Assembly (NCBI RefSeq): GCF_040807025.1
Contig: NC_090973.1
Span: 853,853-917,852, forward strand
Length of the DNA: 64,000 nt
Origin: Struthio camelus
Taxonomy: Eukaryota
Reading direction: 5' to 3'
Shown: piece after piece, positions 2,991-25,589 of the stretch
Position numbering within the stretch: the stretch's first letter is position 1
Layout of the letters: every line of letters begins with the position of its first letter
Made by a program: the position numbers and the translations under genes
Notes under the pieces: model-generated
Databases searched by the model: none
What the model was told of the DNA's origin: nothing
What the model saw: the letters and a program-made list of their open reading frames with translations, nothing else

Positions 2991-3003
2991 GCGGGGGCCT
3001 CAC

Positions 3004-3016
3004 CCAGGTCGTCCAT
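3004..3016 (-). CDS. TGFB1I1: TGFB1I1 (Hic-5) coding exon 1: ATGGACGACCTGG = M-D-D-L plus a split codon base
   Basis: Minus strand reads gccATGGACGACCTGG followed by donor GTGAGG. Joining to the exon at 1733 gives MDDLDALLADLETTTSHL, the paxillin/Hic-5 LD1 motif. Phase 1 matches exon 2. Confidence 0.55.
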
Positions 3017-3099
3017 GGCCGGGGCTGGGTGCGGCCCCCCCCGCCCCCCCGGCCCCGACGCCGCCCCGCGCGGGGCCCCGCGGTGCCCATGTATGGAAG

Positions 3100-5600
3100 C
3101 GCCCGGACGCCTGGGCCCCCCGCCTTCCCCCCCCCCCCCCGAGGCTGGGAATGGGAGGGCGCCCGGACGCCTGGGCCCGCCGGGAAGGGAAGGAGGGTCT
3201 TGGAGTTCGGAAGGGGAAGGCCCGGACGCCTGGGTCCCTGGGATAAGGCGGGGTGAGGGGGGGGGGGGAGATGCCCGAGGCCGGGGCGGGACGGGGTGGG
3301 GCACCCGGACGCCTGGGCCCCTTTTAGGGGGGGACGGCACGGACGCTTGGGTCACTTGGAGGGAACACCCGGACGCCTGGGCCCCTTGTAGGGGACACCC
3401 GGACGCCTGGGCCCTTCGGAGGGGACACCCGGACGCCTGGGCCCCTTTTGGGGGTCACCCGGATGCTTGGGCCCCTTTTGGGGGGGGCACCCGGACACCT
3501 GGGCCCCTTCTAGGGGACACCCGGACGCCTGGGCCCCTTTTGAGGGGGGAGCACTCGGAAGCCTGGGCCCTTTTTGGGGGGGGGAGCACCCGGACGCCTG
3601 GGCCCCTTTTGCTTGGGGGCACCCGGATGCCTGGGCCCCTTTTGGGGGTCACCCGGATGCCTGGGCCCCTTTTCGGGAGGGACACCCGGACGCCTGGGCC
3701 CCTTTTAGGGGGGGACGGCACGGACGCCTGGGTCACTTGGAGGGAACACCCGGACACCTGGGCCCCTTGTAGGGGATACCCGGACGCCTGGGCCCTTCAG
3801 AGGGGACACCCGGATGCCTGGGCCCCTTTTGTGGGGGGGCACCCGGACACCTGGGCCCCTTCTAGGGGACACCCAGACGCCTGGGCCCCTTTTCCTTGGG
3901 GACACCCGGAAGCCTGGGCCCTTTTTGAGGGGGGAGCACCCGGACGCCTGGGCCCCTTTTGCTTGGGGGCACCCGGACGCCTGGGCCCCTTTTGGGGGGG
4001 GCACCCGGACACCTGGGCCCCTTCTAGGGGACACCCGGACGCCTGGGCCCTTTTTGAGGGGGGACCACCCGGATGCCTGGGCCCCTTTTGTGGGGGCGCA
4101 CCCGGACACCTGGGCCCCTTCTAGGGGACACCCGGACGCTTGGGCCCTTTTTGGGGGGGGGAGCACCCGGACACCTGGGCCCCTTTTGCTTGGGGGCACC
4201 CGGACGCCTGGGCCCCTTCTAGGGGACACCCGGACGCTTGGGCCCTTTTTGAGGGGGGACCACCCGGATGCCTGGGCCCCTTTTGTGGGGGCGCACCCGG
4301 ACGCCTGGGCCCCTTCTAGGGGACACCCGGACGCTTGGGCCCTTTTTGGGGGGGGGAGCACCCAGATGCCTGGGCCCCTTTTGCTTGGGGGCACCCGGAC
4401 GCCTGGGCCCCTTCTAGGGGACACCCGGACGCTTGGGCCCCTTTCGCTTGGGGGCACCCGGATGCCTGGGCCCCTTTTGTGGGGGGGCACCCGGACACCT
4501 GGGCCCCTTCTAGGGGACACCCGGACGCTTGGGCCCCTTTTGCTTGGGGGCACCCGGATGCCTGGGCCCCTTTTGGAGGGGCACCCGGACACCTGGGCCC
4601 CTTCTAGGGGACACCCGGACGCTTGGGCCCCTTTTGAGGGGGGACCACCTGGACACCTGGGCCCTTTTTGAGGGGGGGACACCCGGACACCTGGGCCCCT
4701 TTTGCTTGGGGGCACCCGGATGCCTGGGCCCCTTTTGGGGGTCACCCGGATTCCTGGGCCCCTTTTGTGGGGGGGCACCCGGACACCTGGGCCCCTTCTA
4801 GGGGACACCCGGACGCCTGGGCCCCTTTTGCTTGGGGACACCCGGATGCCTGGGCCCCTTTTGTGGGGGGGCACCCGGACACCTGGGCCCCTTCTAGGGG
4901 ACACCCGGACACCTGGGCCCCTTTTGCTTGGGGGCACCCGGACGCCTGGGCCCCTTTTGGGGGGGACATCCGGATGCCTGGGCCCTTTTTGGGGGGGGCG
5001 GATCACCCGGATGCCTGGGCCCCTTTTCGGGAGGGTCACCCGGACGCCTGGGCCCCTTTTGGGGGGGACATCCGGATGCCTGGGCCCCTTTTTGAGGGGG
5101 GGGGCACCCGGATGCCTGGGTCCCTTTTCGGTGGGGGCACCCGAACGCCTGGGCCCCTTTTGGGTGGCAGCACTCAGAGGCCTGGGCCCTTTTTTGGGGG
5201 GGGGGGGATCACCCGGACACCTGGGCCCTTTTTTGGGGAAAGCACCCGGATGCCTGGGCCCCTTTTGGGTGACTACCCGGACACCTGGGCGCCTTGTAGG
5301 TGATAACCCGGACACCTGGGCCCCTTTTGGGTGGGAAACACCTGGACACCTGGGACCCTTTTGGGGGGGGCACCCGGACGCCTGGGCCCTTTTTTGGGGA
5401 AAGCACCCGGACGCCTGGGCCCCTTGTAGGGGACGCTTGGATCACCCGTCACCCCCCCCAACCCCACCCCACCCCGGACACCTGGGCCCCCCAGGACGCC
5501 TGGGCCCCTCCCGGACGCCTGGGCCCCTCCCCGGACACCTGGGCCCCTCCCAGATGCCTGGGCCCCCCAGGACGCCTGGGCCCCCTCCTGGACACCTGGG
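3100..5600. repeat. Satellite with core CACCCGGACGCCTGGGCCCC and T3-4/G-run spacers (~30-bp units), C-strand on plus
   Basis: About 80 copies. Abuts the TGFB1I1 5' end. Confidence 0.85.
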
Positions 5601-5621
5601 CCCGCAGCCATGTCACCACTT

Positions 5622-5627
5622 TATTGT
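5622..5627 (-). other. Lone AATAAA on the minus strand: candidate ARMC5 polyA signal about 1.6 kb below its stop
   Basis: The only canonical hexamer on the minus strand between the ARMC5 stop (7265) and TGFB1I1 exon 1 (3016). A 12-A tract lies nearby on the plus strand at 5715-5726. Confidence 0.25.
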
Positions 5628-7264: not shown

Positions 7265-9148
7265 TTATGGGGGTCCCCCCACCTCCATGTCCTCGTCTGC
7301 TTCCTCTAAGGGGTCCCCAACATCCCCGGGGATGTCCTCGAAGTCGTCCTCCCCCTCCCCGAGCTTCTCCGGGGGGGCCCTGAGGTCCTCCAGAGGGTCC
7401 CTGAGCTCCTCCAGAGGGTCTCTGAGGTCCTCCACAGGGTCCCCAAGGTCCTCCAGAGGGTCCCCAAGCTCCTCCACAGGGTCCCCGAGGTCCTCCAGAA
7501 GGTCCCCGAGGTCCTCCACGGGGGGTTCCCCAGGGAGCCGCAACAGCGGGTCCCCCCCGTCCAAGGGCTCCCCCATATCGAGGTGGGGCCGGAGGTCTCG
7601 GGGGGCCACGGCGGCCAGCAGAGCCCGGGCCAACCGGTTGGGACACCGAACGGTGCGAGCCACCCGGGCCAGACGGGGGGCCACGCTTTGGGGTGGCCCC
7701 TCTAGAAGCTCCCGGGCCGCCCGGGCGGCCAAGGGACCGCAAGCCCAACGCTCGGCCAAAGCCCAGAGGGTGCCGGGGGACCCGGAGACGCTGGCGGCCA
7801 TGACGGCTTCCAAACCCGGCACCAGATAACGGCGGGCCAAGGCGATGGCGGCGCCCGCCGTGGCGGGGGGGACGGGCGAGCGGAGTCGGGGGCACCCGGC
7901 GGCCGGCCGGCACCCGTGGACGTAATGGAGGAGGACGAGGAGGGGGCGGCGGGGGGCGCAGCGCAGGGCCACGGCGCCCTGGCGGGCTTCGGCGAAGGCG
8001 CCCCCCAACATGGCGCCCAACACCGGCGACCCCCGGGTCAAGGCCACCCGGGATGCCGGCAAGCCCGGCTCGGCCCCGTCGGGGAGCAGCAGCAGGTCGT
8101 GGGGCGCCCGGGCGTAGGGGCAGGAGGACCTCGGGGACGTTGGAGGACACGGGGACGCTTGGGGACGGGGGCTGGAGGACCTTGGGGATGGGGGAGGACG
8201 GGGGCTGGAGGACCTCGGGGACGTTGGAGGACTAGAGGATGGGTGGGGACGGGGGCTGGAGGACCTCGGGGACGTTGGAGGACTAGAGGATGGGTGGGGA
8301 CGGGGGCTGGAGGACTTTGGAGATGGTTGGAGATGGGAGTTGGAAGACTTTGGGGGCGTTGGAGGACAAGAGGACACTTGGGGATGGGGGTTGGAGGACC
8401 CTGGGGACACCGGGGGACAAGGGGACAGCTGGGGACGGGGGCTGGAGGACCTTGGGGACGCTGGGGGAGAAGACGATGGTTGCGGACGAGGGCTGGAGGA
8501 CCTTGGGGACGCTGGGGGAGATGACGATGGTCGGGGATGGAGGTCGGAGGACCTTGGGGATGGTTGGCGATGGGGGTTGGAGGACCGCGGGGACGCTGGG
8601 GGAGATGACGATGGTTGGGGATGGAGGTCGGAGGACCTTGGGGATGGTTGGCGATGGCGGTTGGAGGACCGCGGGGACGCTGGAGGACAAGAAGACACTT
8701 GGGGATGGGGGCTGGAGGACCTTGAGGACACTTGGGGACAAGGGGACAGTTGGGGAGCAGGCTCGGAGGACCTCGGAGGACAAGGGGACACTTGAGGATT
8801 GGGGGCCGCTTGGGGACAGGGGGACACGCGGGGACACTTGGGGGGCCTGGGGGACACGTGGGGAAGGAGATGGGGCCGCTTGGGGGCCCTTGGGGCCGCT
8901 TGGGCGCAGGGGGACGGGGACACGGGGGACAGCAGGGGCGGGGGGCGCAGGGCCACCGGGGACGATGTCACCGCGCGTCCCCACGGCTCCTCGGCGGCCC
9001 CGGGTGCGTGGGCGGGTCCCAGCGCGTCCCCAACGTCACCGCGTGCCCCAAGGGCGTCCTCGTGTCCCCACGGCTCCTCGGTGGCCTCGCGTCCACATCC
9101 GGCCTCGTGTCCCCACGGCTCCTCGGTGGCTTCGTCCTGGCCACGCGC
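7265..9148 (-). CDS. ARMC5: ARMC5 candidate last exon (stop TGA at 7265-7267). It contains the BTB-like C-terminal homology (APHDLLLLPDGAEPGLPASRVALTRGSPVLGAMLGGAFAEARQGAVALRCAPRRPLLVLLHYVHGCRPAAGC...RALLAAVAPRDL), preceded by an in-frame ~280-aa Pro/Ser-rich repeat and followed by an acidic (EDLGDPL)n tail
   Basis: The 3' part from about 8130 down aligns to human [68 protein letters not shown]...EALLAVVMGIEL. The proposed acceptor gactccccccag at 9151-9149 is the most upstream phase-0 candidate. The true acceptor could instead lie anywhere from 9148 down to about 8150. The open frame runs ~100 aa past the human C-terminus through a 21-bp repeat. Confidence 0.4.
   Translation of the reverse strand, partial: ARGQDEATEEPWGHEAGCGREATEEPWGHEDALGARGDVGDALGPAHAPGAAEEPWGRAVTSSPVALRPPPLLSPVSPSPCAQAAPRAPKRPHLLPHVSPRPPKCPRVSPCPQAAPNPQVSPCPPRSSEPAPQLSPCPQVSSRSSSPHPQVSSCPPASPRSSNRHRQPSPRSSDLHPQPSSSPPASPRSSNPHRQPSPRSSDLHPRPSSSPPASPRSSSPRPQPSSSPPASPRSSSPRPQLSPCPPVSPGSSNPHPQVSSCPPTPPKSSNSHLQPSPKSSSPRPHPSSSPPTSPRSSSPRPHPSSSPPTSPRSSSPRPPPSPRSSSPRPQASPCPPTSPRSSCPYARAPHDLLLLPDGAEPGLPASRVALTRGSPVLGAMLGGAFAEARQGAVALRCAPRRPLLVLLHYVHGCRPAAGCPRLRSPVPPATAGAAIALARRYLVPGLEAVMAASVSGSPGTLWALAERWACGPLAARAARELLEGPPQSVAPRLARVARTVRCPNRLARALLAAVAPRDLRPHLDMGEPLDGGDPLLRLPGEPPVEDLGDLLEDLGDPVEELGDPLEDLGDPVEDLRDPLEELRDPLEDLRAPPEKLGEGEDDFEDIPGDVGDPLEEADEDMEVGGPP
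7380..7530. repeat. 21-bp repeat (GAGGTCCTCCAGAGGGTCCCT)n, in-frame within the ARMC5 terminal ORF (EDLGDPL)n
   Basis: About 7 units. Confidence 0.75.
8150..8800. repeat. ~60-bp repeat (GGACGGGGGCTGGAGGACCTTGGGGACG...), encoding a P/S-rich stretch on the minus strand
   Basis: Periodic ORF track peptides (GGWRTLGTLGD...). Confidence 0.75.
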
Positions 9149-9199
9149 CTGGGGGGAGTCATGGTGGCCCCGGGGGGGGTTGGTGAGGCCCCCGGGGCC

Positions 9200-11640
9200 A
9201 CCGATGTCCCCGTGTCCCTGACCCATGTCCCAGCATCTCCGTCCCATGTCCCAGTCCCATGTCCCCATCCCACGTCCCAGTGTCCCCATCCCACGTCCCA
9301 GTAGCTCCATCCCACGTCCCAGCTCCACGTCCCAGTGTCCCCATCCCACGTCCCAGTAGCTCCATCCCACGTCCCAGCTCCGCATCCCAGTGTCTCCATC
9401 CCGTGTCCCAGCTCCACGTCCCAGTATCTCCATCCCACGTCCCAGCTCCACGTCCCAGTGTCCCTGTCCCATGTCCCAGCTCCACGTCCCACTGTCCCCA
9501 TCCCACGTCCCAGTATCTCCATCCCATGCCCCAGCTTCACGTCCCAGTGTCCCTGTCCCACGTCCCAGCTCCATGTCCCACTGTCCCCATCCCACGTCCC
9601 AGTATCTCCATCCCATGCCCCAGCTCCACGTCCCAGTGTCTCCATCCCACGTCCCAGCTCCACATCCCAGTGTCCCCATCCCATGTCCCCGTCCCGTGTC
9701 CCAGTGTCCCCATCCCACGTCCCATTATCTCCATCCCACGTCCCAGCTCCACGTCCCAGTGTCCCCATCCCACGTCCCAGTATCTCCATCCCATGCCCCA
9801 GCTTCACGTCCCAGTGTCCCTGTCCCACGTCCCAGCTCCACGTCCCACTGTTCCCATCCCACGTCCCACTGTTCCCATCCCACGTCCCAGTATCTCCGTC
9901 CCATGCCCCATCCCACGTCCCCGTGTCCCCATCCCACGTCCCCGTCCCGTGTCCCAGTGTCTCCATCCCATGCCCCAGCTCCACGTCCCAGTGTCCCCGT
10001 CCCATGTCCCAGCTCCACGTCCCAGTGTCTCCATCCCACGTCCACGTCCCAGTGTCTCCATCCCATGTCCCATGTCCCCGTCCCATGACCCCAGCTCACG
10101 TCCCAGTATCTCCATCCCATGACCCCAGCTCATGTCCCAGTGTCTCCATCCCATGTCCCCATCCCGTGTCCCAGCTCCATGTCCCAGTGTCTCCATCCCA
10201 TGTCCCATGTCCCCGTCCCATGACCCAGCTCACGTCCCAGTGTCTCCATCCCATGACCCCGTCCCATGACCCCAGCTCCACGTCCCAGTGTCTCCATCCC
10301 ATGACCCCGTCCCATGACCCATGTCCCCGTCCCATGACCCCAGCTCCACGTCCCAGTGTCTCCATCCCATGACCCCGTCCCATGACCCCAGCTCACGTCC
10401 CAGTGTCTCCATCCCATGTCCCCATCCTGTGTCCCAGCTCCACGTCCCAGTGTCCCCATCCCATGACCCCGTCCCATGTCCCATGTCCCCGTCCCATGAC
10501 CCCAGCTCCACGTCCCAGTGTCTCCATCCCATGACCCCGTCCCATGACCCATGTCCCCGTCCCATGACCCCAGCTCACGTCCCAGTGTCTCCATCCCATG
10601 ACCCCGTCCCATGACCCCAGCTCACGTCCCAGTGTCTCCATCCCATGACCCCGTCCCATGTCCCATGACCCCGTCCCATGACCCCAGCTCACGTCCCAGT
10701 GTCTCCATCCCATGACCCCGTCCCATGACCCCATCTCACGTCCCAGTGTCTCCATCCCATGACCCCGTCCCATGACCCCGTCCCATGACCCCAGCTCCAC
10801 GTCCCAGTGTCTCCATCCCATGACCCCGTCCCATGTCCCATGTCCCCGTCCCATGACCCCAGCTCCACGTCCCAGTGTCTCCATCCCATGACCCCATCCC
10901 ATGACCCCAGCTCACGTCCCAGTGTCTCCATCCCATGACCCCATCCCATGTCCCCGTCCCATGACCCCAGCTCCACGTCCCAGTGTCTCCATCCCATGAC
11001 CCCATCCCATGTCCCCGTCCCATGACCCCAGCTCCACGTCCCAGTGTCTCCATCCCATGACCCCGTCCCATGACCCATGTCCCCGTCCCATGACCCCAGC
11101 TCACGTCCCAGTGTCTCCATCCCATGTCCCCGTCCCATGACCCCAGCTCCACGTCCCAGTGTCTCCATCCCATGACCCCATCCCGTGTCCCATGTCCCCG
11201 TCCCATGACCCCAGCTCACGTCCCAGTGTCTCCATCCCATGTCCCCGTCCCATGACCCCAGCTCCACGTCCCAGTGTCTCCATCCCATGACCCCATCCCG
11301 TGTCCCATGTCCCCGTCCCATGACCCCATCTCACGTCCCAGTGTCTCCATCCCATGTCCCCGTCCCATGACCCCAGCTCCACGTCCCAGTGTCTCCATCC
11401 CATGACCCCGTCCCGTGTCCCATGTCCCCGTCCCATGACCCCAGCTCCACGTCCCAGTGTCTCCATCCCATGACCCCGTCCCATGACCCCAGCTCACGTC
11501 CCAGTGTCTCCATCCCACGTCCCCATCCTGTGTCCCAGCTCCACGTCCCAGTGTCTCCATCCCGTGTCCCAACGCCATGTCCCAGTGTCTCCATCCCGTG
11601 TCCCAACGCCACGTCCCAGCGTCCCCGTCCCGTGTCCCCG
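9200..11640. repeat. 2.4-kb array of the 21-bp family CCCACGTCCCAGTGTCTCCAT / CCATGACCCCGTC
   Basis: ARMC5 intron 6. Confidence 0.85.
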
Positions 11641-11652
11641 CGCGGGGGTTAC

Positions 11653-14340: not shown

Positions 14341-14384
14341 CACACACCCCCCCCAACCCCAGGGCCAAAATCCCGCAGCCTCAC

Positions 14385-14896: not shown

Positions 14897-14989
14897 CTGC
14901 CGGGAGAGAGGAGAAGGGGTGAGGGTATCAGGTGTGGGTGCTGGTTTGGGGAAGGGGGTGGGGTGGGGGGGTAGGGGGACGGTTCCCCG

Positions 14990-15900
14990 GGGCGCAGTTT
15001 GGTGAAGGGTGGTGCTGGGGAGGCCGAGGGTGACAGCAGGGACCCACCTGGACCTCCACCTTGCCCTGAGGGACACCAAGAGTGACCCCAGGGGTCCTTC
15101 TAGACCCCCACCTTCACCTGAGGAACCTCAACGGTAGCACCAGGGACCACCTGGACCTCCACCTTGCCCTGAGGGACACCAAGAGTGACCCCAGGGATCC
15201 TTCTAGACCCCCACCTTCACCTGAGGAACCTCAAGGCTGACACCAGGGACCCACCTGGACCTCCACCTTGCCCTGAGGGACACCAAGAGTGACCCCAGGG
15301 GTCCTTCTAGATCCCCACCTTCACCTGAGGAACCTCAAGGCTGACACCAGGGACCCACCCGGACCTCCACTTGCCCTGAGGGACACCAAGAGTGACCCCA
15401 GGGGTCCTTCTAGACCCCCACCTTCACCTGAGGAACCTCAAGGCTGACACCAGGGACCCACCCGGACCTCCACTTGCCCTGAGGGACACCAAGAGTGACC
15501 CCAGGGGTCCTTCTAGACCCCCACCTTCACCTGAGGAACCTCAAGGCTGACACCAGGGACCCACCCGGACCTCCACTTGCCCTGAGGGACACCAAGAGTG
15601 ACCCCAGGGGTCCTTCTAGACCCCCACCTCCACCTGAGGAACCTCAAGGCTGACACCAGGGACCCACCCGGACCTCCACTTGCCCTGAGGGACACCAAGA
15701 GTGACCCCAGGGGTCCTTCTAGACCCCCACCTTCACCTGAGGAACCTCAAGGCTGACACCAGGGACCCACCCGGACCTCCACTTGCCCTGAGGGACACCA
15801 AGAGTGACCCCAGGGGTCCTTCTAGACCCCCACCTTCACCTGAGGAACCTCAAGGCTGACACCAGGGACCCACCCGGACCTCCACTTGCCCTGAGGGACA
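14990..15900. repeat. ~105-120-bp tandem repeat (CCACCTTCACCTGAGGAACCTCAAGGCTGACACCAGGGACCCACC...), about 8 copies
   Basis: ARMC5 intron 3. Confidence 0.85.
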
Positions 15901-16300
15901 CCAAGAGTGACCCCAGGGACCCCAAGTGTGACACCAGGGACCCCCCAAACACCAATCTTCACCCCAGGAACCCCAAGGGAGACACCAGGGATCCTCCAAA
16001 CACCAACACTCAACCCAGAGACCCCAAGGGAGACACCAGAGATCCCCCAAACACCAACCCTCACCCCGGGGACCCCAAGGGAGACACCAGGGATCCTCCA
16101 AACACCAACCTGCAACTCAGGGACCCCAAAGAAGACACCAGGGACCCCCCAAACACCAACCCTCACCCCAGGGACCCCAAGGGAGACACCAGGGATCCCC
16201 CAAACACCAACCTTCACCCCGGGGACCCCAAGGGAGACACCAGAGATCCTCCAAACACCAACCCTCAGCCCGGGGACCCCAAGGGAGACCCCCCACCACC
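15900..16300. repeat. ~60-bp repeat (GGGACCCCAAGGGAGACACCAGGGATCCCCCAAACACCAACCCTCACCCCA), about 7 copies
   Basis: ARMC5 intron 3, adjacent to the exon 3 donor. Confidence 0.85.
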
Positions 16301-16313
16301 ACCACCGCCTCAC

Positions 16314-17151
16314 TTGAGTCCCCGCAAACTGCCGGCGGCCGCTCCGGAACCGGGCGACCGAGGCGGCTGTTGAGACGGTAGGTCGAAAGAAGCGGCTTCT
16401 TCGTCTTCGTCGTCCTCGGCGCCTTCGCCTCCTCCGTCCTCCTCCTCGCCGGCGCCGGGCCGCCTCCTGCCTTCCTCTTCGTCGGCCCGCGCCCGCAACA
16501 CGTCGACGAGCAACGGGACGAGACCGTCGGCCTCGAGGGCTTCCAGGGCCGGCCGGTCGTAGGCGAAAGCGGCCAAAGCCAAGACGACGCGAGGTCGCCA
16601 AGGCCGAGCCCTCGGGTCGGCCAAGAGGGCGAGCAAGAGGGGCAGGCCGCCGGCGGCCCGCACCCGGGCTCGATTGACGGCCTCGCGGCACAGGAGGCAG
16701 AGGGCGCGAGCCAAGGCGGCGGGCACGCCGGGCGGCGCCGCCAGCGCCCTCCTCACCTCGGCGGCCACGGCTTCGACGGCGCCCGCCGCCCCCAGGGCCG
16801 GCCGTAGGGTGGCTCGGGCGCAAGCGGCGGCGATGGCGCCCAAGGCGGCTTGCCGTCGCTCGCCTTTGCCGCCGGCGGCCAAGGCGGTCAAAGCCGGGGC
16901 GGCGGCGGCCAGCTCGGCGGCGCTCAGGTCGCCCAGGAGGAGGCGGAGGGCCCGCGTGAGGCCGGCGCAGGTCGGGTGGGTGGGCGGCAACGAAGCCAAG
17001 CGGGCGGTCAAAGCTCGGGCGGCTCCGGCTCGCGTCAAGGCGCTCCGGGCGTTGGGATGACCGGCCAGGATGCGGAGGGCTCGGGCGGCGCTGTGCAGGC
17101 ACGAGCCGGCGGCGCACGAGGCCGTCAGGGCCGCCAAGGCCGGCACGGCGC
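16314..17151 (-). CDS. ARMC5: ARMC5 exon 3 (armadillo-repeat core, 279 codons): (G)AVPALAALTASC...ALCLLCREAVNRARVRAAGGLPLLLALLADPRARPWRPRVVLALAAFAYD...EEAASFDLPSQQPPRSPGSGAAAGSLRGL+aa
   Basis: Acceptor ccccaccag. Colinear with human [29 protein letters not shown]...[54 protein letters not shown]...ASWDFPEE...GSFRSLRS. Donor AA|GTGAGG. Confidence 0.75.
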
Positions 17152-17219
17152 CTGGTGGGGACCGAGCGCGGGGTGGTTCGTTAGCGGCCTTCTTTTGGGG
17201 GGGGGGGGAAGGAGAGAGA

Positions 17220-19170
17220 TCGGGGGGTGTCTCCTTCGCTCGCCCGGGGACGCCTGGTGGGGACGTGCCAGGGCACCCAGGAGACCCTCTGGGGACGTTT
17301 GGGACATCCTGAGGTAGCCAGAAGAACCTCTGGGGACGTTGGGGACGTGCCAGGGCACCCAGGAGACCCTCTGGGGACGTTGGGGACATCCTGAGGTAGC
17401 CAGAAGAACCTCTGGGGACGTTGGGGACGTGCCAGGGCACCCAGGAGACCCTCTGGGGACGTTGGGGACATCCCGAGGTAGCCAGGAGACCCTCTGGAGA
17501 TGTTGGGGACGTGCCAGGGCACCCAGGAGACCCTCTGGGGACGTTGGGGACTTCCTGAGGTAGCCAGGAGACCCTCTGGAGACGTTGGGGACGTGCCAGG
17601 GCACCCAGAAGACCCTCTGGGGACGTTGGGGACATCCCGAGGTAGCCAGGAGACCCTCTGGAGATGTTGGGGGCGTGCCAGGGCACCCAGGAGACCCTTT
17701 GGGGACGTTGGGGACATCCTGAAGTAGCCAGAAGACCCTCTGGAGACGTTGGGGACATCCTGAGGTAGCCAGGAGACCCTCTGGAGACATTGGGGACGTG
17801 CCAGGGCACCCAGGAGACCCTCTGGGGATGTTGGGGACATCCCGAGGTAGCCAGGAGACCCTCTGGAGATGTTGGGGACATCCCGAGGTAGCCAGGAGAC
17901 CCTCTGGAGATGTTGGGGACATGCCAGGGCACCCAGGAGACCCTCTGGGGATGTTGGGGACTTCCTGAGGTAGCCAGGAGACCCTCTGGAAACGTTGGGG
18001 ACGTGCCAGGGCACCCAGGAGACCCTCTGGGGACGTTGGGGACGTGCCAGGGACACCACAGGGCACCCAGGAGACCCTCTGGGGACGTTGGGGACGTGCC
18101 AGGGCCCCCAGGAGACCCTCTGGGGACGTTGGGGACGTGCCAGGGACACCACAGGGCCCCCAGGAGACCCTCTGGGGACGTTGGGGACATCCCGAGGTAG
18201 CCAGGAGACCCTCTGGAGATGTTGGGGACGTGCCAGGGCACCCAGAAGACTCTCTGGGGATGTTGGGGACATCCCAGGGACACCTTGTGACACCCAAGGT
18301 ACCCCAGGGGCACCCAGGGGACACCAGAGCACCCCATCCGAGCCGGGGACACCCAAGGGACCCCAACAGGGGACACCGGGGCACCCCATGACACCCAAGG
18401 GACCCCCATAGGGGACACCAGAGCACCCCGTCCCACCCGGGGACACCCAAGGGACCCCCATAGGGAACACCAGAGCACCCCATCCCACCCAGGGGCACCC
18501 AAGGGACCCCAACAGGGGACACCGGGGCACCCCATCCCACCCAGGGGCACCCAAGGGACCCCAACAGGGGACACCAGAGCACCTCGTCCCACCCGAGGGC
18601 ACCCAAGGGACCCCAACAGGGGACACCAGAGCACCCCATCCCACCCGGGGACACCCAAGGGACCCCAACAGGGGACACCAGAGCACCCCATCCCACCCAG
18701 GGACACCCAAGGGACCCCCATAGGGAACACCAGAGCACCCCATCCCACCCAGGGGCACCCAAGGGACCCCAACAGGGGACACCAGGGCACCCCATCCCAC
18801 CCGGGGACACCCAAGGGACCCCCATAGGGGACACCAGAGCACCCCATCCCACCCGGGAGCACCCAGGAGACCCCCATAGGGGACACCGGGGCACCCCGTC
18901 CCACCCAGGGGCACCCAGGAGACCCCCATAGGGGACACCGGGGCACCCCATGACACCCAAGGGACCCCCATAGGGGACACCAGAGCACCCTGTCCCACCC
19001 GGGGGCACCCGAGGGACCCCCATAGGGGACACCAGGGCACCCCATCCCACCCGGGGGCACCCAAGGGACCCCCATAGGGGACACCAGAGCACCCCATGAC
19101 ACCCAAGGGACCCCCATAGGGGACACCGGAGCACCCCGTCCCACCCGGGAGCACCCGAGGGACCCCCGGA
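17220..19170. repeat. Two arrays: an ~80-bp unit (17220-18290) and a ~52-60-bp unit (18290-19170, CCCATCCCACCCGGGGACACCCAAGGGACCCC...)
   Basis: ARMC5 intron 2. Confidence 0.8.
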
Positions 19171-19194
19171 GGGGCACCCCGGGGTGCCGCTCAC

Positions 19195-19302
19195 CGGCCT
19201 CGAGGACGGCCTGGGCGCCGTCGGGCTCCAGCGCCAGGTTGGCCAGGGCGCGCGCCACCCGGTTCTGCACGCTCTCCGCCGCCCCCGGGGTCAGCAGGGT
19301 CA
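19195..19302 (-). CDS. ARMC5: ARMC5 exon 2: (V)TLLTPGAAESVQNRVARALANLALEPDGAQAVLEA+g
   Basis: Acceptor ccccgcag, donor G|GTGAGC. Matches human [37 protein letters not shown]. Phase is continuous with exon 1. Confidence 0.75.
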
Positions 19303-19379
19303 CTGCGGGGTCCGAGGGCGAAGGTCACGGCCGGCGCGGGCACCCCGGGGTGCCTCCCCCCCCCCCCCGCCGCCGCCCA

Positions 19380-20220
19380 GAGCGCCCTATGGGGCTGGGC
19401 TGAACCATTCCCCCCTCTGGGGGGGGGAGGGGAGCACCCATAGCACCCAATGGGGTTGGGCTGAACCATTCCCCCCCCCCGAATAGGAATGGTGCGGTCC
19501 GACCCCCCCCAATGGGGGAATGGTGCAGTCTGACCCCCCTCCCCGAATGGGGGGGTCGGACCGCACCATTCCCATTCGGGGGGGGGGGGGGGTCGGACCG
19601 CACCATTCCCCCATTCTGGGGGGGGGGGGGGGGTCGGACCGCACCATTCCCCCATTCTGGGGGGGGGCCGGACCGCACCATTCCCCCATTGGGGGGGGGT
19701 CGGACCGCACCATTGCCCCCATTCTGGGGGGGGTCGGACCGCACCATTGCCCCCATTCTGGGGGGGGTCGGACCGCACCATTCCCCCTATGGGGGGGGGG
19801 GCCAGACCGCACCATTCCCCTATTGGGGAGGGTCAGACCGCACCATTCCCCCATTCTGGGGGGGGGGGGTCGGACCGCACCATTCCCCCATTGGGGGGGG
19901 GGGTCGGACCGCACCATTCCCCCATTCTGGGGGGGGGGGTCGGACCGCACCATTCCCCCATTCTGGGGGGGGGGTCGGACCGCACCATTCCCCCATTCTG
20001 GGGGGGGGGTCGGACCGCACCATTCCCCCATTCTGGGGGGGGGGGTCGGACCGCACCATTCCCCCATTCTGGGGGGGGGTCAGACCGCACCATTCCCCCT
20101 ATGGGGGGGGGGTCAGACCACACCATTCCCCCATTGGGGGGGGGTCAGACCGCACCATTCCCCCATTCTGGGGGGGGGGGTCGGACCGCACCATTCCCAC
20201 TCGGGGAAGGGGGACACCCC
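19380..20220. repeat. ~40-bp repeat G(8-13)-TCGGACCGCACCATTCCCCCATTCT, about 20 copies
   Basis: ARMC5 intron 1. Long G-runs lie on the plus strand. Confidence 0.88.
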
Positions 20221-20247
20221 CCCCCCAAAAACCCCGCAGCCACTCAC

Positions 20248-20524
20248 CGAGGCGAGGCACCCCGCCGAGGCGGCGGGCCTGGCGGCGGCAACCGGCCTCG
20301 GTGCAGCAGTTGGCGAGGACGCTGAGGGCCAAGTCGAGGGTGCGCCGGGGCCTGTCGGGCCCCAGCAGCTCCAGCAGCGGGCCCAGACCCCCGCGCTCAC
20401 GGAACCGAGCGGCGCCGCCCGCCTTCCGCGTGTGCCGCAACCGCAGCGCCAGCAGCGCCCGGCCCAGGCCCGGCTCCGCCGCCGCCCGCACCGCCTCCAC
20501 GCACCACCCCAGCGGCTCCGCCAT
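20248..20524 (-). CDS. ARMC5: ARMC5 coding exon 1 (ATG at 20524-20522): [92 protein letters not shown]+g
   Basis: Aligns to the human ARMC5 N-terminus ([35 protein letters not shown]...[28 protein letters not shown]). Donor GTGAGTG at 20247-20241. Confidence 0.8.
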
Positions 20525-20795
20525 CGCCGCCCGGCGGCTGCGGCGCCAGGAGATGGCGGCGGCGCGGAGCCGGGGGGGGGGGGGGCGCAGCGGAAGCTAC
20601 GGGAGGCGCCGCGCGGCTGCGCGCCCGGGGGCTGCCGGGAAACGGAGTGCGCCGCCCCTCAGGGGAAAGGGCGGGAACTCGGGCTCCCGGCAGGCACCGC
20701 GCGGCGGGGAAGGGAGGGGGGGGGAGTGAGGGGAGGCGCCGCGCGGCTGCGCGCCCGGGGGCTGCCGGGAAACGCAGTCCGCCGCCCCTCAGGGG

Positions 20796-20814
20796 ACTAC
20801 GGCTCCCAGCAGGC
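20796..20814 (+). promoter_or_regulatory. ZNF143/SBS-like motif ACTACGGCTCCCAGCAGGC in the ARMC5 5' flank (copy 1 of two)
   Basis: Resembles the Staf/ZNF143 consensus ACTACAAYTCCCAGCARTGC. Lies about 270 bp upstream of the ARMC5 ATG inside a tandemly duplicated ~125-bp GC block (20597-20700 and 20722-20870). Confidence 0.35.
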
Positions 20815-20851
20815 ACCGCGCGGCGGGGAAGGGAGGGAGGGGAGGGAGGGG

Positions 20852-20869
20852 ACTACAGCTCCCGTGGGG
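20852..20869 (+). promoter_or_regulatory. Second ACTACAGCTCCCGTGGGG (ZNF143-like) motif
   Basis: Paralogous position in the duplicated promoter block. Confidence 0.3.
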
Positions 20870-20929
20870 CTTTGCGGCGCGGCGCGGGCGGGCGGCGGGG
20901 AGGGGCGGCGCGCGAGGCACGCTGGGGGG

Positions 20930-23240
20930 TGTAGTTCCAGGGCGCCTGAGTCCCTCCCCGGACACCTGGGCCCTTCCCCGGACACCTGGGTCCCTCCAGG
21001 ACGCCTGGGCCCTTCCCCGGATGCCTGGGCCCCTCCCAGACACCTAGGCCCTTCCCGGACGCCTGGGCCCCTCCCGGACACCTGGGCCCCTCCCCGGACA
21101 CCTGGGCCCCTCCCGGACACCTGGGTCCCCCCGGACACCTGGGCCCCTCCAGGACGCCTGGGCCCCTCCCGGACGCCTGGGCCCTTCCAGGACGCCTGGG
21201 TCCCTCCCAGACGCCTGGGTCCCTCCCCGGACACCTGGGCCCCTCCCGGAGGCCTGGGTCCCTCCCCGGACACCTGGGCCCCTCCCGGACACCTGGGCCC
21301 CTCCCGGACTCCTGGGTCCCTCCCCGGACACCTGGGCCCCTCCCGGACACCTGGGTCCCTCCCGGACACCTGGGCCCCTCCCGGACACCTGGGTCCCCCC
21401 GGACACCTGGGTCCCTCCCCGGACTCCTGGGCCCCTCCCGGACGCCTGGGCCCTCCCCGGACGCCTGGGCCCTTCCCTGGACACCTGGGCCCTTCCTGGA
21501 CACCTGGGTCCCTCCCGGACGCCTGGGCCCCTCCCCGGACGCCTGGGTCCCTCCTGGACGCCTGGGCCCCTCCCGGACTCCTGGGCCCTTCCAGGACGCC
21601 TGGGTCCCTCCCGGACGCCTGGGCCCCTTCCCGGACACCTGGGCCCTTCCCCGGACGCCTGGGCCCCTCCCGGACACCTGGGTCCCTCCCAGACACCTGG
21701 GCCCTCCCCGGACGCCTGGGCCCTTCCCCGGACACCTGGGCCCTTCCTGGACACCTGGGTCCCTCCCTGGACGCCTGGGCCCTTCCAGGACGCCTGGGCC
21801 CCTCCCGGACACCTGGGTCCTTCCCGGACGCCTGGGCCCCTCCCGGACACCTGGGTCCTTCCCCGGACACCTGGGCCCTCCCCGGACGCCTGGGCCCTCC
21901 CGGACGCCTGGGCCCCTCCCGGACACCTGAGTCCTTCCCCGGACACCTGGGCCCTCCCCGGACGCCTGGGTCCCTCCCGGAAGCCTGGGCCCTTCCAGGA
22001 CGCCTGGGCCCCTCCCGGACACCTGGGTCCCTCCCGGACACCTGGGTCCCTCCCCGGACACCTGGGTCCTCCCCGGACGCCTGGGCCCCTCCCGGACACC
22101 TAGGTCCTTCCCCGGACACCTGGGCCCCTCCCGGACACCTGGGTCCCTCCCGGACACCTGGGCCCCTCCCGGACACCTGGGTCCCCCCGGACACCTGGGC
22201 CCCTCCCGGACGCCTGGGCCCTTCCAGGACGCCTGGGCCCCTCCCGGACGCCTGGGTCCCTCCCCGGACACCTGGGCCCCTCCCGGACACCTGGGCCCCT
22301 CCCGGACTCCTGGGTCCCTCCCCGGACACCTGGGCCCCTCCCGGACACCTGGGTCCCTCCCAGACACCTGGGCCCCTCCCGGACGCCTGGGTCCTCCCGG
22401 ACACCTGGGCCCCTCCCGGACACCTGGGCCCCTCCCGGACTCCTGGGTCCCTCCCCGGACACCTGGGCCCCTCCCGGACTCCTGGGTCCCTCCCCGGACA
22501 CCTGGGCCCCTCCCGGACACCTGGGTCCCTCCCAGACACCTGGGCCCCTCCCGGACGCCTGGGTCCTCCCGGACACCTGGGCCCCTCCCCGGACACCTGG
22601 GCCCTTCCCGGACACCTGGGCCCCTCCCGGACACCTGGGTCCCTCCCCGGACACCTGGGCCCTTCCCGGACACCTGGGCCCCTCCCGGACACCTGGGTCC
22701 CTCCCAGATACCTGGGCCCCTCCCGGAGGCCTGGGCCCCTCCCGGACACCTGGGTCCCTCCCAGACACCTGGGCCCTCCCCGGACGCCTGGGCCCTCCCG
22801 GACGCCTGGGCCCCTCCCTGGACACCTGAGTCCTTCCCCGGACACCTGGGCCCTCCCCGGACGCCTGGGTCCCTCCCGGAAGCCTGGGCCCTTCCCGGAC
22901 GCCTGGGCCCCTCCCGGACACCTGGGTCCCTCCCGGACACCTGGGTCCCTCCCCGGACACCTGGGTCCTCCCCGGACGCCTGGGCCCCTCCCGGACACCT
23001 AGGTCCTTCCCCGGACACCTGGGCCCTCCCCGGACGCCTGGGCCCTCCCGGACGCCTGGGCCCCTCCCGGACACCTGGGTCCTTCCCCGGACACCTGGGC
23101 CCTCCCCGGACGCCTGGGTCCCTCCCGGAAGCCTGGGCCCTTCCAGGATGCCTGGGCCCCTCCCGGACACCTGGGTCCCTCCCGGACACCTGGGCCCTTC
23201 CCCGGACGCCTGGGCCCCTCCCGGACGCCTGGGCCCCTCC
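20930..23240. repeat. 20-bp satellite (CCCGGACACCTGGGCCCCTC)n, about 115 copies, between the ARMC5 and SLC5A2 5' ends
   Basis: Near-perfect tandem copies. Confidence 0.92.
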
Positions 23241-23449
23241 CGGACGAGGGCAGTGGGCCGTGGTGCTGCGGGGGAGGGGACAGACCCGGACGCCTGGGTC
23301 CACCGAGGGCAATGGGAGGGGGAGGGCGCAGGCCCGGACGCCTGGGCCCCCTGGGTGGGTGGGGACATGGGGGGCACCGAGGCGTGCTGGGGGGAGGGGG
23401 GGGGCCCGGATGCCTGGGCCCCCTCGCTCCTCCCCCCACCGCCGAGGCG

Positions 23450-23459
23450 GGTATTTAGG
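23450..23459 (+). promoter_or_regulatory. TATA-like element GTATTTAGGG upstream of SLC5A2
   Basis: The only AT hexamer between the satellite and the ATG. Sits 37-42 bp 5' of the ATG at 23494, which implies a very short 5' UTR. Confidence 0.35.
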
Positions 23460-23493
23460 GGGCAGCCCGGACGCCTGGGCCCGCCGGGGCGCC

Positions 23494-23580
23494 ATGGAGG
23501 GGGGGACGGTGGCCGTCACCCCCTGGGACCTGGGCGTCATCGGGGGCTACTTCGGCCTCGTCATCGCCGTGGGGCTCTGG
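23494..23580 (+). CDS. SLC5A2: SLC5A2 (SGLT2) exon 1: MEGGTVAVTPWDLGVIGGYFGLVIAVGLW
   Basis: ATG at 23494, donor GTAGGG at 23581. Matches human SGLT2 ...ADILVIAAYFLLVIGVGLW. Confidence 0.8.
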
Positions 23581-23589
23581 GTAGGGCCG

Positions 23590-25586: not shown

Positions 25587-25589
25587 GTG

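What the first reader, a model, noticed from the sequence alone, without database searches (positions are those of the whole stretch)
3004..23580. Local gene order differs from human: ARMC5 and SLC5A2 are head-to-head, with TGFB1I1 downstream of ARMC5 on the other side
As I recall it, human has ARMC5(+) TGFB1I1(+) SLC5A2(+) RUSF1(-) in tandem. Here, read on the minus strand, the order is RUSF1(+) SLC5A2(-) | ARMC5(+) TGFB1I1(+). The SLC5A2-RUSF1 pair is therefore inverted or transposed relative to ARMC5-TGFB1I1, and the new ARMC5/SLC5A2 junction is occupied by a 2.3-kb 20-bp satellite. This could be a lineage-specific inversion with a breakpoint healed or mediated by satellite.
Basis: inference. 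Interest (0 to 1): 0.6.

Follow-up and report, generated by a model that had tools for sequence, protein, structure and literature searches.

The report
Old bird gene-order change, secondary satellite
In this ostrich microchromosome segment ARMC5 and SLC5A2 really do sit head-to-head, unlike in mammals, but this is an old rearrangement shared with a tinamou, and the satellite between the two genes is a later local repeat expansion, not the cause or scar of the break.

Summary
The window is ostrich: my SLC5A2 model is 100% identical to the annotated Struthio camelus protein. On the + strand the order is TGFB1I1(-) ARMC5(-) | SLC5A2(+) RUSF1(-). Primates have ARMC5> TGFB1I1> SLC5A2> <RUSF1.

The junction is not a misassembly. 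An independent tinamou assembly has ARMC5 exons 1-2 about 2.1 kb upstream of SLC5A2, also head-to-head, and the window has no N.

It is not ostrich-specific either. In Cariama (Neoaves) the two genes are also divergent but 62.5 kb apart, with PYCARD and an integrin-alpha gene between them.

The satellite idea is not supported:
- The unit is 19 bp, not 20.
- Only 25% of the 349 core-motif copies in the window lie at the junction.
- Tinamou has a different 21-bp array in its spacer.
- Single copies of the motif sit at orthologous positions in the SLC5A2 promoters of tinamou and Cariama.

The array is therefore an in-place expansion of the published "sequence stuttering" type.

Which state is ancestral could not be tested directly. 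Indirect evidence makes the bird state derived. My preferred history is a block inversion in the bird stem, then loss of the PYCARD-integrin segment in palaeognaths. This is an ordinary micro-rearrangement of low to moderate interest.

The parts
1..3016 (-). TGFB1I1 (Hic-5), 5' part only. Exon 1 is 3016-3004 (ATG GAC GAC CTG G|GT). Exon 2 starts at 1733 (DALLADLETTTSHLARRPVLL...). A further exon at 78-1 (STVHKARSPR...GLGELDR) runs off the left edge of the window.
   Evidence: The LD1, Tyr-site and LD2 peptides match proteins annotated as TGFB1I1 (E down to 1e-11 to 1e-13 in a small set), and the one leupaxin in that set matches poorly. The tandem position downstream of ARMC5 is the same as in Cariama and human.
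3294..5603 (.). Tandem arrays (33/63/96-bp and 19-bp units) between the ARMC5 stop codon and the TGFB1I1 start codon. They contain the same CCGGACGCCTGGGCCCC core as the junction satellite, in the same orientation.
   Evidence: TRF. Motif counts: 54 core hits in 2-6 kb.
7265..20524 (-). ARMC5. Exon-bearing segments (approximate): 20524-20240, 19303-19190, 17190-16500, 14733-14467, 12599-12528, and a last exon about 8125-7265 ending in TAA at 7267-7265. The last exon reads through the 21-bp array at 7356-7518, which encodes acidic heptad repeats.
   Evidence: Pfam PF24768 hits in order. tblastn with bird ARMC5 proteins P0121 and P0123-P0126. Frame and stop codon.
20525..20944 (.). Unique ARMC5-proximal part of the spacer (promoter / 5'UTR stub). 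About 200 bp next to the ATG align with the Cariama ARMC5 upstream region.
   Evidence: Alignment A3. Alignment A2.
20945..23246 (.). Junction satellite: 19-bp unit CCCTCCCGGACACCTGGGC, about 120 copies, 85% matches, G+C about 0.77.
   Evidence: TRF. Composition. 88 core-motif hits in the 20-24 kb bins.
23247..23493 (+). SLC5A2 proximal promoter stub. It has a TATA-like GGGTATTTAGGGGG about 45 bp upstream of the ATG and several dispersed copies of the satellite motif. It is orthologous to the tinamou and Cariama SLC5A2 promoters.
   Evidence: Alignments A1 and A4.
23494..44543 (+). SLC5A2 (SGLT2), 15 coding exons: 23494-23580, 25515-25586, 26692-26796, 27849-27908, 28411-28515, 29685-29790, 29875-29955, 32521-32720, 34140-34275, 36356-36463, 38403-38553, 39401-39569, 41211-41426, 42803-42884, 44404-44543.
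   Evidence: All introns are GT..AG. The product is 100% identical to the annotated ostrich protein P0001.
38556..44331 (.). Arrays of the same motif family in reverse orientation (GGGGCCCAGGYGTCCGGG) filling the last four introns of SLC5A2 (after exons 11, 12, 13 and 14). The 19-bp unit at 38556-39371 is the reverse complement of the junction unit.
   Evidence: TRF. 139 reverse core hits in 38-46 kb. Arrays in the same orientation occupy the tinamou 3' introns, and dispersed copies the turtle 3' introns.
44648..63175 (-). RUSF1 (C16orf58). Exon-bearing segments at 63175-63056, 59668-59636, about 58725-58507, 57278-57141, 55156-55025, about 54265-53828, 48607-48452, 46325-46239 and 44770-44648. 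The first exon(s) may lie beyond 63175 or outside the window. The 3' end is about 100-150 bp from the SLC5A2 stop codon.
   Evidence: Pfam PF04884 and PF24160. tblastx against the Cariama gene. tblastn probe.

Best explanation
The ARMC5|SLC5A2 head-to-head junction is a genuine, old, fixed change of gene order on a G+C-rich avian dot/micro-chromosome. It was present before ostrich and tinamou diverged.

The bird arrangement is most likely the derived one. It was probably reached in two steps.
1. In the lineage leading to birds, the whole block PYCARD-(integrin alpha genes)-ARMC5-TGFB1I1 was inverted relative to the conserved convergent pair SLC5A2>/<RUSF1. This put PYCARD next to SLC5A2 and turned ARMC5 to face it from a distance, which is the state still seen in Cariama.
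2. In palaeognaths the roughly 60-kb PYCARD-integrin segment was deleted or moved. This brought the ARMC5 promoter to within 2-3 kb of the SLC5A2 promoter.

The 2.3-kb 19-bp satellite is not part of that history. It is a later, ostrich-lineage, in-place tandem expansion of a short motif that already lay in the SLC5A2 promoter. It is one case of the chromosome-wide 'sequence stuttering' that fills 81% of this window.

Shown: gene identities and strands; the shared junction in two palaeognaths; the different arrangement in Neoaves; the local origin of the array.
Inferred: which state is ancestral, and the two-step route.
For: Gene map.

Real junction: tinamou L001 has ARMC5 exon 1 at 7879-7604(-) and exon 2 at 5318-5199(-), directly upstream of SLC5A2 at 10001(+). 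Both flanks align to ostrich (A1, A2). The window has no N.

Neoaves state: on Cariama record WNMO01000103.1 the order is RNF40-like(+) RUSF1(+) SLC5A2(-, 59153-70568) PYCARD(-) integrin-alpha(+) ... ARMC5(+, from 133068) TGFB1I1(+, from 142364). PYCARD identity was confirmed by tblastn. House finch also has no SLC5A2 exon within 10 kb upstream of ARMC5.

Mammalian state: macaque L002 and PMC7390941.

Conserved pairs: SLC5A2>/<RUSF1 is convergent in macaque, turtle, lizard, Cariama and ostrich. ARMC5>TGFB1I1 is in tandem in ostrich, Cariama and human.

Which state is ancestral (indirect): green anole PYCARD is flanked by FUS and TRIM72 as in mammals (PMC13076529), so PYCARD-SLC5A2 adjacency is derived on the bird side.

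Step 2: PYCARD/ASC is absent from most birds, including a tinamou, and is inferred to have been lost repeatedly (PMC11258412). Dot chromosomes are gene-loss hotspots (PMC12954441).

Satellite secondary:
- Motif distribution.
- A different 21-bp array in the tinamou spacer.
- Orthologous single motif copies in the tinamou and Cariama SLC5A2 promoters.
- The motif is enriched in Cariama and turtle, 5 matches against 0.10 expected in each.
- PMC12954441 describes strictly local, species-specific repeat expansions in dot-chromosome introns and intergenic DNA, and illustrates chicken SLC5A2 on chr38.
Against: No non-avian sauropsid, amphibian or fish showed the gene upstream of SLC5A2. Turtle, lizard and gar have nothing called within 10 kb, and the frog locus is rearranged. 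The ancestral TGFB1I1-SLC5A2 adjacency is therefore inferred, not observed, outside mammals.

The second breakpoint, 3' of TGFB1I1, lies outside the window.

No remnant of PYCARD, integrin or COX6A2 exons was found in the ostrich or tinamou spacers, so there is no positive trace of a deletion.

The two-step route and the direct small inversion each need two events across birds, so parsimony only weakly favours the two-step route, because it avoids breaking the same gap twice.

The Cariama arrangement rests on one scaffold. The strands of human PYCARD and ITGAM are from my own knowledge and were not tested here.
Confidence: 0.5

Rival explanations
1. Direct small inversion. From a mammal-like order, only the ARMC5-TGFB1I1 pair was inverted in the palaeognath lineage. 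The Cariama-type order arose separately, by a larger inversion that used the same TGFB1I1|SLC5A2 gap. The satellite is a later local expansion.
For: Relative to macaque and human the ostrich order differs by exactly one inversion of [ARMC5 TGFB1I1] (and the gene map). No remnant of PYCARD or integrin exons lies in the spacer. The region is rearrangement-prone: tinamou has a SETD1-like gene, not RUSF1, downstream of SLC5A2, so repeated breakage is not implausible.
Against: It needs the same short intergenic gap to break independently in two bird lineages. It treats the shared divergent orientation of ARMC5 and SLC5A2 in palaeognaths and Neoaves as coincidence. It does not use the documented loss of PYCARD in tinamous and most birds.
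Confidence: 0.3
2. The mammalian order is the derived one. The ancestral amniote had ARMC5 (or PYCARD...ARMC5) divergent from SLC5A2, as in birds, and the inversion happened on the mammalian stem.
For: No outgroup observation of a TGFB1I1-SLC5A2 adjacency was obtained. Turtle and lizard have more than 10 kb of gene-free sequence upstream of SLC5A2, unlike the roughly 5.8-kb gap in macaque.
Against: The anole shares the FUS-PYCARD-TRIM72 context with mammals (PMC13076529), so at least the PYCARD-side junction of the Cariama arrangement is derived in the bird lineage. Lizard shows no PYCARD or ARMC5 exon within 10 kb upstream of SLC5A2.
Confidence: 0.1
3. Satellite-mediated or satellite-healed breakpoint. 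The 19-bp array was the substrate of the rearrangement, through non-allelic recombination between inverted arrays, or it was added when the break was repaired.
For: The same motif family occurs in both orientations within 15 kb. The junction array is forward and the arrays at 38.5-44.3 kb are reverse; the 38556-39371 unit is the exact reverse complement. Inverted arrays could in principle support recombination. Motif copies are old, being present in turtle and Cariama.
Against: The junction predates the ostrich-tinamou split, yet tinamou has a different 21-bp array there and only single copies of the ostrich unit. The seeds of the array belong to the SLC5A2 promoter even where PYCARD is the neighbour. 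75% of the motif copies are elsewhere in the window, and 81% of the window is tandem repeat of many kinds. Expansions of this kind are reported to be local and species-specific (PMC12954441).
Confidence: 0.07
4. Assembly artefact: two unrelated contigs were joined through a collapsed or chimeric satellite.
For: The junction is 78% satellite, in a region of extreme G+C and repeat content that is hard to assemble.
Against: An independent assembly of a different species has the same adjacency with orthologous unique flanks on both sides and a spacer of only about 2.1 kb. The window has no N.
Confidence: 0.02

Closest known systems
Sequence stuttering on avian dot chromosomes (PMC12954441, Genome Biol Evol 2026)
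   Same: The sequence is G+C-rich. Introns and intergenic DNA are filled by tandem arrays of local origin that differ between species. Chicken SLC5A2 (chr38:911984-951178) is one of the paper's illustrated loci. Here 81% of the window is tandem repeat, and the junction array can be traced to a single promoter motif copy in tinamou and Cariama.
   Different: The paper's screen concerns introns and exon-derived copies in chicken, and it documents length polymorphism within the species. Here the array is intergenic, lies between two promoters, and is in ostrich. Polymorphism could not be tested.
Evolutionary breakpoint regions and micro-inversions between amniote genomes
   Same: The same four orthologous genes are present, with two conserved gene pairs whose relative orientation is reversed. 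The change is fixed and shared by related species.
   Different: Only one of the two breakpoints is in the window. Which state is ancestral is inferred indirectly. Three different arrangements around SLC5A2 exist among just three bird lineages (ostrich, tinamou, Cariama), which suggests unusually high local turnover.
Recurrent loss of PYCARD/ASC in birds (PMC11258412; PMC13076529)
   Same: In ostrich and tinamou, PYCARD is missing from the place next to SLC5A2 where Cariama has an intact PYRIN+CARD gene. This agrees with reports that tinamou and most birds lack ASC.
   Different: Those papers are presence/absence surveys. They do not describe the locus, the SLC5A2 adjacency, or a deletion junction. 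Whether ostrich has PYCARD elsewhere was not testable here.
Bidirectional (head-to-head) promoter gene pairs
   Same: Two divergently transcribed genes whose start codons face each other.
   Different: The classical definition needs less than about 1 kb between transcription start sites, usually within one CpG island. Here the start codons are 2969 bp apart and 2.3 kb of satellite lies between them. One gene is expected to be kidney-specific and the other broadly expressed, on the basis of established knowledge of the mammalian genes. No shared regulation is implied.

Membership tests
Fixed evolutionary inversion / rearrangement | Orthologous genes are present, and their order or orientation is reversed relative to a reference lineage. 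| tested here: met
   Ostrich is <TGFB1I1 <ARMC5 SLC5A2> <RUSF1. Macaque and human are ARMC5> TGFB1I1> SLC5A2> <RUSF1.
Fixed evolutionary inversion / rearrangement | The arrangement is reproduced in an independent assembly or related species, so it is not an artefact and not private to one genome. | tested here: met
   Eudromia elegans L001 has ARMC5 exons 1-2 on the - strand directly upstream of SLC5A2 (+), with orthologous flanks.
Fixed evolutionary inversion / rearrangement | An outgroup establishes which state is ancestral. | tested here: inconclusive
   Turtle, lizard and gar have no neighbour within 10 kb upstream of SLC5A2, and frog is rearranged. The only evidence is indirect: the anole PYCARD context is mammal-like.
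Fixed evolutionary inversion / rearrangement | Both breakpoints are identified. | not testable with these tools
   The second breakpoint lies 3' of TGFB1I1, beyond the left edge of the window.
Assembly misjoin | There is a gap or N run at the join, the adjacency is absent from other assemblies, and the flanks are not orthologous to one locus elsewhere. | tested here: not met
   The window has 0 N. The same adjacency and flanks occur in tinamou.
Sequence stuttering (local tandem expansion on dot chromosomes) | The repeat unit derives from local unique sequence. | tested here: met
   Tinamou has a single copy, CCGGACGCCTGGGCCCCTCCC, where the ostrich array ends. Further copies lie at orthologous promoter positions in tinamou and Cariama.
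Sequence stuttering (local tandem expansion on dot chromosomes) | Expansions differ between species at orthologous sites. | tested here: met
   The ostrich spacer holds a 19-bp array of 2302 bp. The tinamou spacer holds a 21-bp array, GGAGCGGACGAACCGGGACCC, at 7925-9000.
Sequence stuttering (local tandem expansion on dot chromosomes) | The locus lies on a G+C-rich dot chromosome with very high simple-repeat coverage. | tested here: met
   G+C is 0.60-0.78 and TRF coverage is 81%. The host record is 4.79 Mb. The chicken orthologue is on chr38.
Sequence stuttering (local tandem expansion on dot chromosomes) | Length polymorphism within the species. | not testable with these tools
   This needs ostrich long-read population data.
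Repeat-mediated (NAHR) inversion | Homologous repeats in inverted orientation at both breakpoints, present before the event. | tested here: inconclusive
   Forward and reverse arrays of the family exist in the window. However, the second breakpoint is unseen, the junction array is ostrich-specific, and only single motif copies are ancestral.
Bidirectional promoter pair | Divergent transcription start sites less than about 1 kb apart. | tested here: not met
   ATG to ATG is 2969 bp in ostrich and about 2.1 kb in tinamou. The transcription start sites themselves are unknown.

The most novel reading that the evidence does not exclude
The palaeognath ARMC5|SLC5A2 junction is the deletion scar left when the inflammasome adaptor gene PYCARD (ASC) and the neighbouring integrin-alpha gene(s) were removed. 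The dispersed, two-orientation CCGGACGCCTGGGYCCC motif arrays of this dot chromosome are the recombination substrate that drives such deletions and inversions. If so, 'sequence stuttering' would be mechanistically linked to the recurrent gene losses and the fast gene-order turnover seen among ostrich, tinamou and Cariama.
Probability: 0.15. Interest if true: 0.55.

Novelty: new member of a known kind. Interest (0 to 1): 0.25.

Why it matters
On its own this is an ordinary micro-rearrangement between lineages that, from general knowledge, separated about 300 million years ago.

It has three modest uses:
1. It documents that a junction which looks suspicious, being 78% satellite, is real. This helps in judging the new long-read bird assemblies.
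2. It gives a traceable case of an intergenic satellite growing from a promoter motif. That motif is older than crown birds, and copies of the same family are present in turtle SLC5A2 introns.
3. With the Cariama and tinamou loci, it shows three different neighbourhoods around SLC5A2 in three bird lineages. It also places an intact Cariama PYCARD gene next to SLC5A2. That offers a concrete locus for studying how ASC was lost in most birds, and whether dot-chromosome repeat expansion and gene loss are connected.

Tried and rejected
1. Look-ups of ostrich, goose and cormorant SLC5A2 found no gene record. Two of these were isoform X2, and only the longest product of a gene is indexed. Three of the twelve look-ups were lost this way.

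2. Outgroup neighbourhoods were uninformative. Turtle and lizard and gar have nothing called within 10 kb upstream of SLC5A2, and tblastn found no unannotated ARMC5, TGFB1I1 or PYCARD exons there. The Spea frog SLC5A2 lies among a kinase/HEAT gene and pseudouridine-synthase and HYLS1 genes.

3. The protein search with the Ala-rich ARMC5 exon returned only 7 bird hits. The TGFB1I1 search returned 25 hits and no species that overlapped the SLC5A2 list. Comparing coordinates within one outgroup genome was therefore impossible.

4. Raw tblastx between Cariama and ostrich was swamped by repeat-derived hits. Only the high-identity RUSF1 exon hits were used.

5. Literature searches for published synteny of ARMC5, TGFB1I1 and SLC5A2 found only human GWAS context and family-level papers.

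6. A search for remnants of PYCARD, integrin-alpha or COX6A2 in the ostrich and tinamou spacers and in the Neoaves ARMC5 upstream flanks was negative.

7. I considered that the 5' fragment at 1-3016 might be paxillin or leupaxin rather than TGFB1I1. I rejected this on peptide matches and on synteny.

8. Human SGLT2, Hic-5, RUSF1, PYCARD and COX6A2 sequences written from memory were used only as tblastn probes. Most identifications were then confirmed with window-derived sequence against Pfam, PDB or database proteins. Exceptions: the RUSF1 exon segments 63175-63056 and 59668-59636 rest on the recalled RUSF1 probe alone; the sequence-level identification of Cariama PYCARD rests on the recalled PYCARD probe, although the precomputed PYRIN+CARD Pfam hits on that gene are independent; and the negative COX6A2 search rests on the recalled COX6A2 probe.

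Full report
WHAT IS THERE

The window is 64 kb with G+C of 0.60-0.78. Tandem Repeats Finder covers 81% of it, and it contains no N. Coding exons are short unique islands between minisatellite arrays.

I located exons with tblastn, using human SGLT2 and Hic-5 sequences written from memory as probes only. I then built a 15-exon SLC5A2 model on the + strand (23494-44543) in which every intron is GT..AG. Its 605-aa product is 100% identical over its full length to the NCBI protein 'sodium/glucose cotransporter 2-like [Struthio camelus]', which lies on a 4,790,203-bp record. Its best match among solved structures is human SGLT2 (7vsi, E = 4.5e-263), ahead of SGLT1. The window is therefore ostrich, from a small G+C-rich chromosome. 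The chicken orthologue is on chr38.

ARMC5 is on the - strand. The Pfam ARM_ARMC5 profile is hit at positions 1-32, 32-69 and 69-289 by the segments 20524-20186, 19324-19151 and 17287-16313, with best E = 3.2e-43. Bird ARMC5 proteins add exons at 12599-12528 and 7450-7280. The ATG is at 20524 and the stop codon TAA is at 7267-7265.

RUSF1 is on the - strand, from at least 63175 down to about 44650. Pfam UVB_sens_prot and UVB_sens_C are hit in order. Its last coding exon ends about 100-150 bp from the SLC5A2 stop codon.

Only the 5' end of TGFB1I1 is in the window, on the - strand. Exon 1 is ATGGACGACCTGG|GT at 3016-3004, exon 2 starts at 1733, and another exon lies at 78-1. The peptides (LD1, the STV-K-RSP tyrosine-site region, and LD2) match proteins annotated as TGFB1I1 from birds, snakes, a bat and teleosts, and not leupaxin.

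The ATG-to-ATG spacer is 20525-23493 (2969 bp). Within it, 20945-23246 is a single array with a 19-bp unit (not 20), about 120 copies, and 85% matches.

IS THE COMPARISON WITH HUMAN RIGHT?

Yes. The macaque locus shows a Paxillin/LIM gene (TGFB1I1, +), then SLC5A2 (+), then RUSF1 (-). A human 16p11.2 GWAS paper places its lead SNP 'downstream of ARMC5 ... and upstream of TGFB1I1 ... and SLC5A2' and lists the block as ARMC5, TGFB1I1, SLC5A2, C16orf58 (PMC7390941).

Relative to that order, the ostrich differs by one inversion of the ARMC5-TGFB1I1 pair. The convergent SLC5A2/RUSF1 pair is intact. That pair is also convergent in turtle, lizard and Cariama.

IS THE JUNCTION REAL?

Yes. In an independent assembly of another palaeognath, the tinamou Eudromia elegans (locus L001), ARMC5 exon 1 (7879-7604) and exon 2 (5318-5199) lie on the - strand, directly upstream of SLC5A2, which starts at 10001 on the + strand. 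The unique sequence on both sides aligns to ostrich. On one side this is ARMC5 exon 1 (A2); upstream of its ATG the two species align only weakly. On the other side it is the SLC5A2 proximal promoter, including a TATA-like box, and exon 1 (A1).

A misjoin through the satellite is therefore excluded for practical purposes. The arrangement predates the ostrich-tinamou split.

IT IS NOT THE ONLY BIRD ARRANGEMENT

In Cariama cristata, ARMC5 (+) is followed by TGFB1I1 (+), as in ostrich. But SLC5A2 is 62.5 kb away on the same scaffold. The record order is RNF40-like(+), RUSF1(+), SLC5A2(-, 59153-70568), a PYRIN+CARD gene(-), an integrin-alpha gene(+), then after about 52 kb ARMC5(+, from 133068) and TGFB1I1(+, from 142364). 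The PYRIN+CARD gene aligns to human PYCARD at 45-47% identity over both domains.

In house finch, too, no SLC5A2 exon lies within 10 kb upstream of ARMC5.

So in Neoaves ARMC5 and SLC5A2 are also divergent, but PYCARD and integrin gene(s) lie between them. This equals the mammalian block [PYCARD ... ITGAM-family ... ARMC5 TGFB1I1], inverted as a whole relative to [SLC5A2 RUSF1]. The human strands of PYCARD and ITGAM are from my own knowledge.

Tinamou differs again on the other side. A SET/N-SET/RRM gene (SETD1-like), not RUSF1, lies downstream of SLC5A2. That makes three neighbourhoods in three bird lineages.

WHICH STATE IS ANCESTRAL?

The direct test failed. Turtle, lizard and gar have no called gene, and no detectable exon, within 10 kb upstream of SLC5A2. 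The spadefoot-toad SLC5A2 sits in an unrelated neighbourhood.

There is indirect evidence. In the green anole, PYCARD is flanked by FUS and TRIM72 as in mammals (PMC13076529). The PYCARD-SLC5A2 adjacency of Cariama is therefore derived on the bird side.

PYCARD/ASC is reported absent from most birds, including a tinamou, with repeated independent losses (PMC11258412). Dot chromosomes are reported to be hotspots of gene loss (PMC12954441).

I therefore favour a two-step history, with probability about 0.5. First, the whole PYCARD...TGFB1I1 block was inverted in the bird stem. Second, the PYCARD-integrin segment was lost or moved in palaeognaths, which brought ARMC5 next to SLC5A2.

It needs the TGFB1I1|SLC5A2 gap to have broken twice independently in birds.

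The gene 3' of TGFB1I1 in ostrich, just outside the window, would decide between the two routes.

THE SATELLITE

The idea that the array healed or mediated the break is not supported.

(a) The core CCGGAYRCCTGGG occurs 349 times in the window. Only 88 copies lie in the 20-24 kb bins that hold the junction array. The others are at 2-6 kb (54), 26-30 kb (8) and 48-52 kb (59) in the same orientation, and at 38-46 kb (139) in reverse orientation, inside SLC5A2 introns.

(b) The orthologous tinamou spacer carries a different 21-bp array (7925-9000, unit GGAGCGGACGAACCGGGACCC).

(c) Where the ostrich array ends, tinamou has a single copy, CCGGACGCCTGGGCCCCTCCC. Further degenerate copies lie at aligned positions between there and the ATG (A1).

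(d) The three-way alignment of ostrich, tinamou and Cariama shows motif copies at orthologous promoter positions in all three, beside the same TATA-like box, although the upstream neighbour in Cariama is PYCARD (A4).

(e) The motif is significantly enriched in Cariama and in turtle, 5 matches against 0.10 expected in each. In turtle, four of the five copies lie in the 3' introns of SLC5A2, in the same orientation as the ostrich and tinamou arrays in their 3' introns.

The seeds of the array are therefore older than crown birds and belong to SLC5A2. The 2.3-kb array is an ostrich-lineage expansion in place.

This is what PMC12954441 calls 'sequence stuttering': strictly local, species-specific tandem expansions in introns, and also in intergenic DNA, of dot-chromosome genes. 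Chicken SLC5A2 is among its illustrated loci.

The ARMC5-proximal 420 bp of the spacer is unique. Its roughly 200 bp next to the ATG align with the Cariama ARMC5 upstream region (A3). So the spacer is an ARMC5 promoter stub, a lineage-specific array, and an SLC5A2 promoter stub.

COMPARISON WITH WHAT IS KNOWN, AND VERDICT

The gene-order change is a new example of a known kind, a fixed micro-rearrangement between amniote lineages. The satellite is a new example of a recently described kind, sequence stuttering.

It is not a classical bidirectional promoter pair, because the start codons are 2-3 kb apart.

It is of low to moderate interest. The most interesting residue is the possibility that this junction marks where PYCARD and integrin genes were removed in palaeognaths, and that the repeat instability of dot chromosomes is linked to such losses. 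My evidence neither shows nor excludes this.

Noticed in passing
window 7265-7518: The last ARMC5 exon reads in frame through the 21-bp tandem array at 7356-7518 (7.8 copies). This gives an acidic heptad-like repeat (EDLGDPV/LEELGDPL...) just before the stop codon TAA at 7267-7265. Charadrius ARMC5 (P0123, residues 451-507) aligns to this tail, so a repetitive acidic C-terminus may be general in birds.
   Followed up: partly
window 2-6 kb, 20-24 kb, 26-30 kb, 48-52 kb (forward) and 38-46 kb (reverse); L001 16304-16940 and 29969-32950; L003 20516-21943; L008 9908: One motif family, CCGGACRCCTGGGYCCC, seeds many separate arrays in ostrich and tinamou. It is present as dispersed copies in Cariama and in turtle SLC5A2 3' introns (5 matches against 0.10 expected in each). 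It is absent from the macaque, lizard, gar and frog loci. In turtle, several copies share longer flanks, which suggests a longer dispersed repeat.
   Followed up: partly
window 29961-34093: TRF calls one 4.1-kb array of a 10-bp unit (ACTGGGAGGC, about 408 copies) that runs across SLC5A2 exon 8 (32521-32720). Repeat masking would hide this coding exon.
   Followed up: partly
L008 6905-7710 (Cariama cristata): An apparently intact PYCARD/ASC gene (PYRIN + CARD, 212 aa, 45-47% identical to human) lies 2.3 kb upstream of SLC5A2. Published surveys report ASC as missing from nearly all birds.
   Followed up: partly
L001 33177-43177 (Eudromia elegans): Downstream of tinamou SLC5A2 lies a SET/N-SET/RRM (SETD1-like) gene on the same strand. 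No RUSF1 exon is detectable, although the most conserved RUSF1 exon is 83% identical from ostrich to macaque and lizard. RUSF1 has been lost or moved in this tinamou.
   Followed up: partly
L001 about 7885 versus window 20524: At the position aligned to the ostrich ARMC5 start codon, tinamou has GCC GCC GCG instead of GCG ATG GCG. The tinamou gene must use another start, or its first exon is altered.
   Followed up: no
L003 33256-36553 and L004 25568-28753 (Eretmochelys imbricata): A phosphatidylserine-decarboxylase-domain gene (PF02666) lies between SLC5A2 and RUSF1 in both turtle haplotype assemblies. It is absent from that position in macaque, lizard, Cariama and ostrich. SLC5A2 also spans 21 kb in one turtle assembly and 12 kb in the other.
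   Followed up: no
L010 (Spea bombifrons): The frog gene annotated as SLC5A2 is flanked by a kinase/HEAT gene on one side and by two pseudouridine-synthase genes and HYLS1 on the other, not by RUSF1. Either the locus moved in anurans or the orthology needs checking.
   Followed up: no
window 44543-44770: The SLC5A2 stop codon (44543) and the last coding exon of RUSF1 (about 44648-44770, - strand) are only about 100-150 bp apart. The 3' UTRs of this convergent pair must overlap or abut.
   Followed up: no
window 42884-44404 and the SLC5A2 C-terminus: Ostrich SGLT2 is 605 aa, against 672 residues for the solved human SGLT2 chain (7vsi). The difference lies in the poorly conserved cytoplasmic loop before the last transmembrane helix. 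Other birds range from 590 to 629 aa.
   Followed up: no
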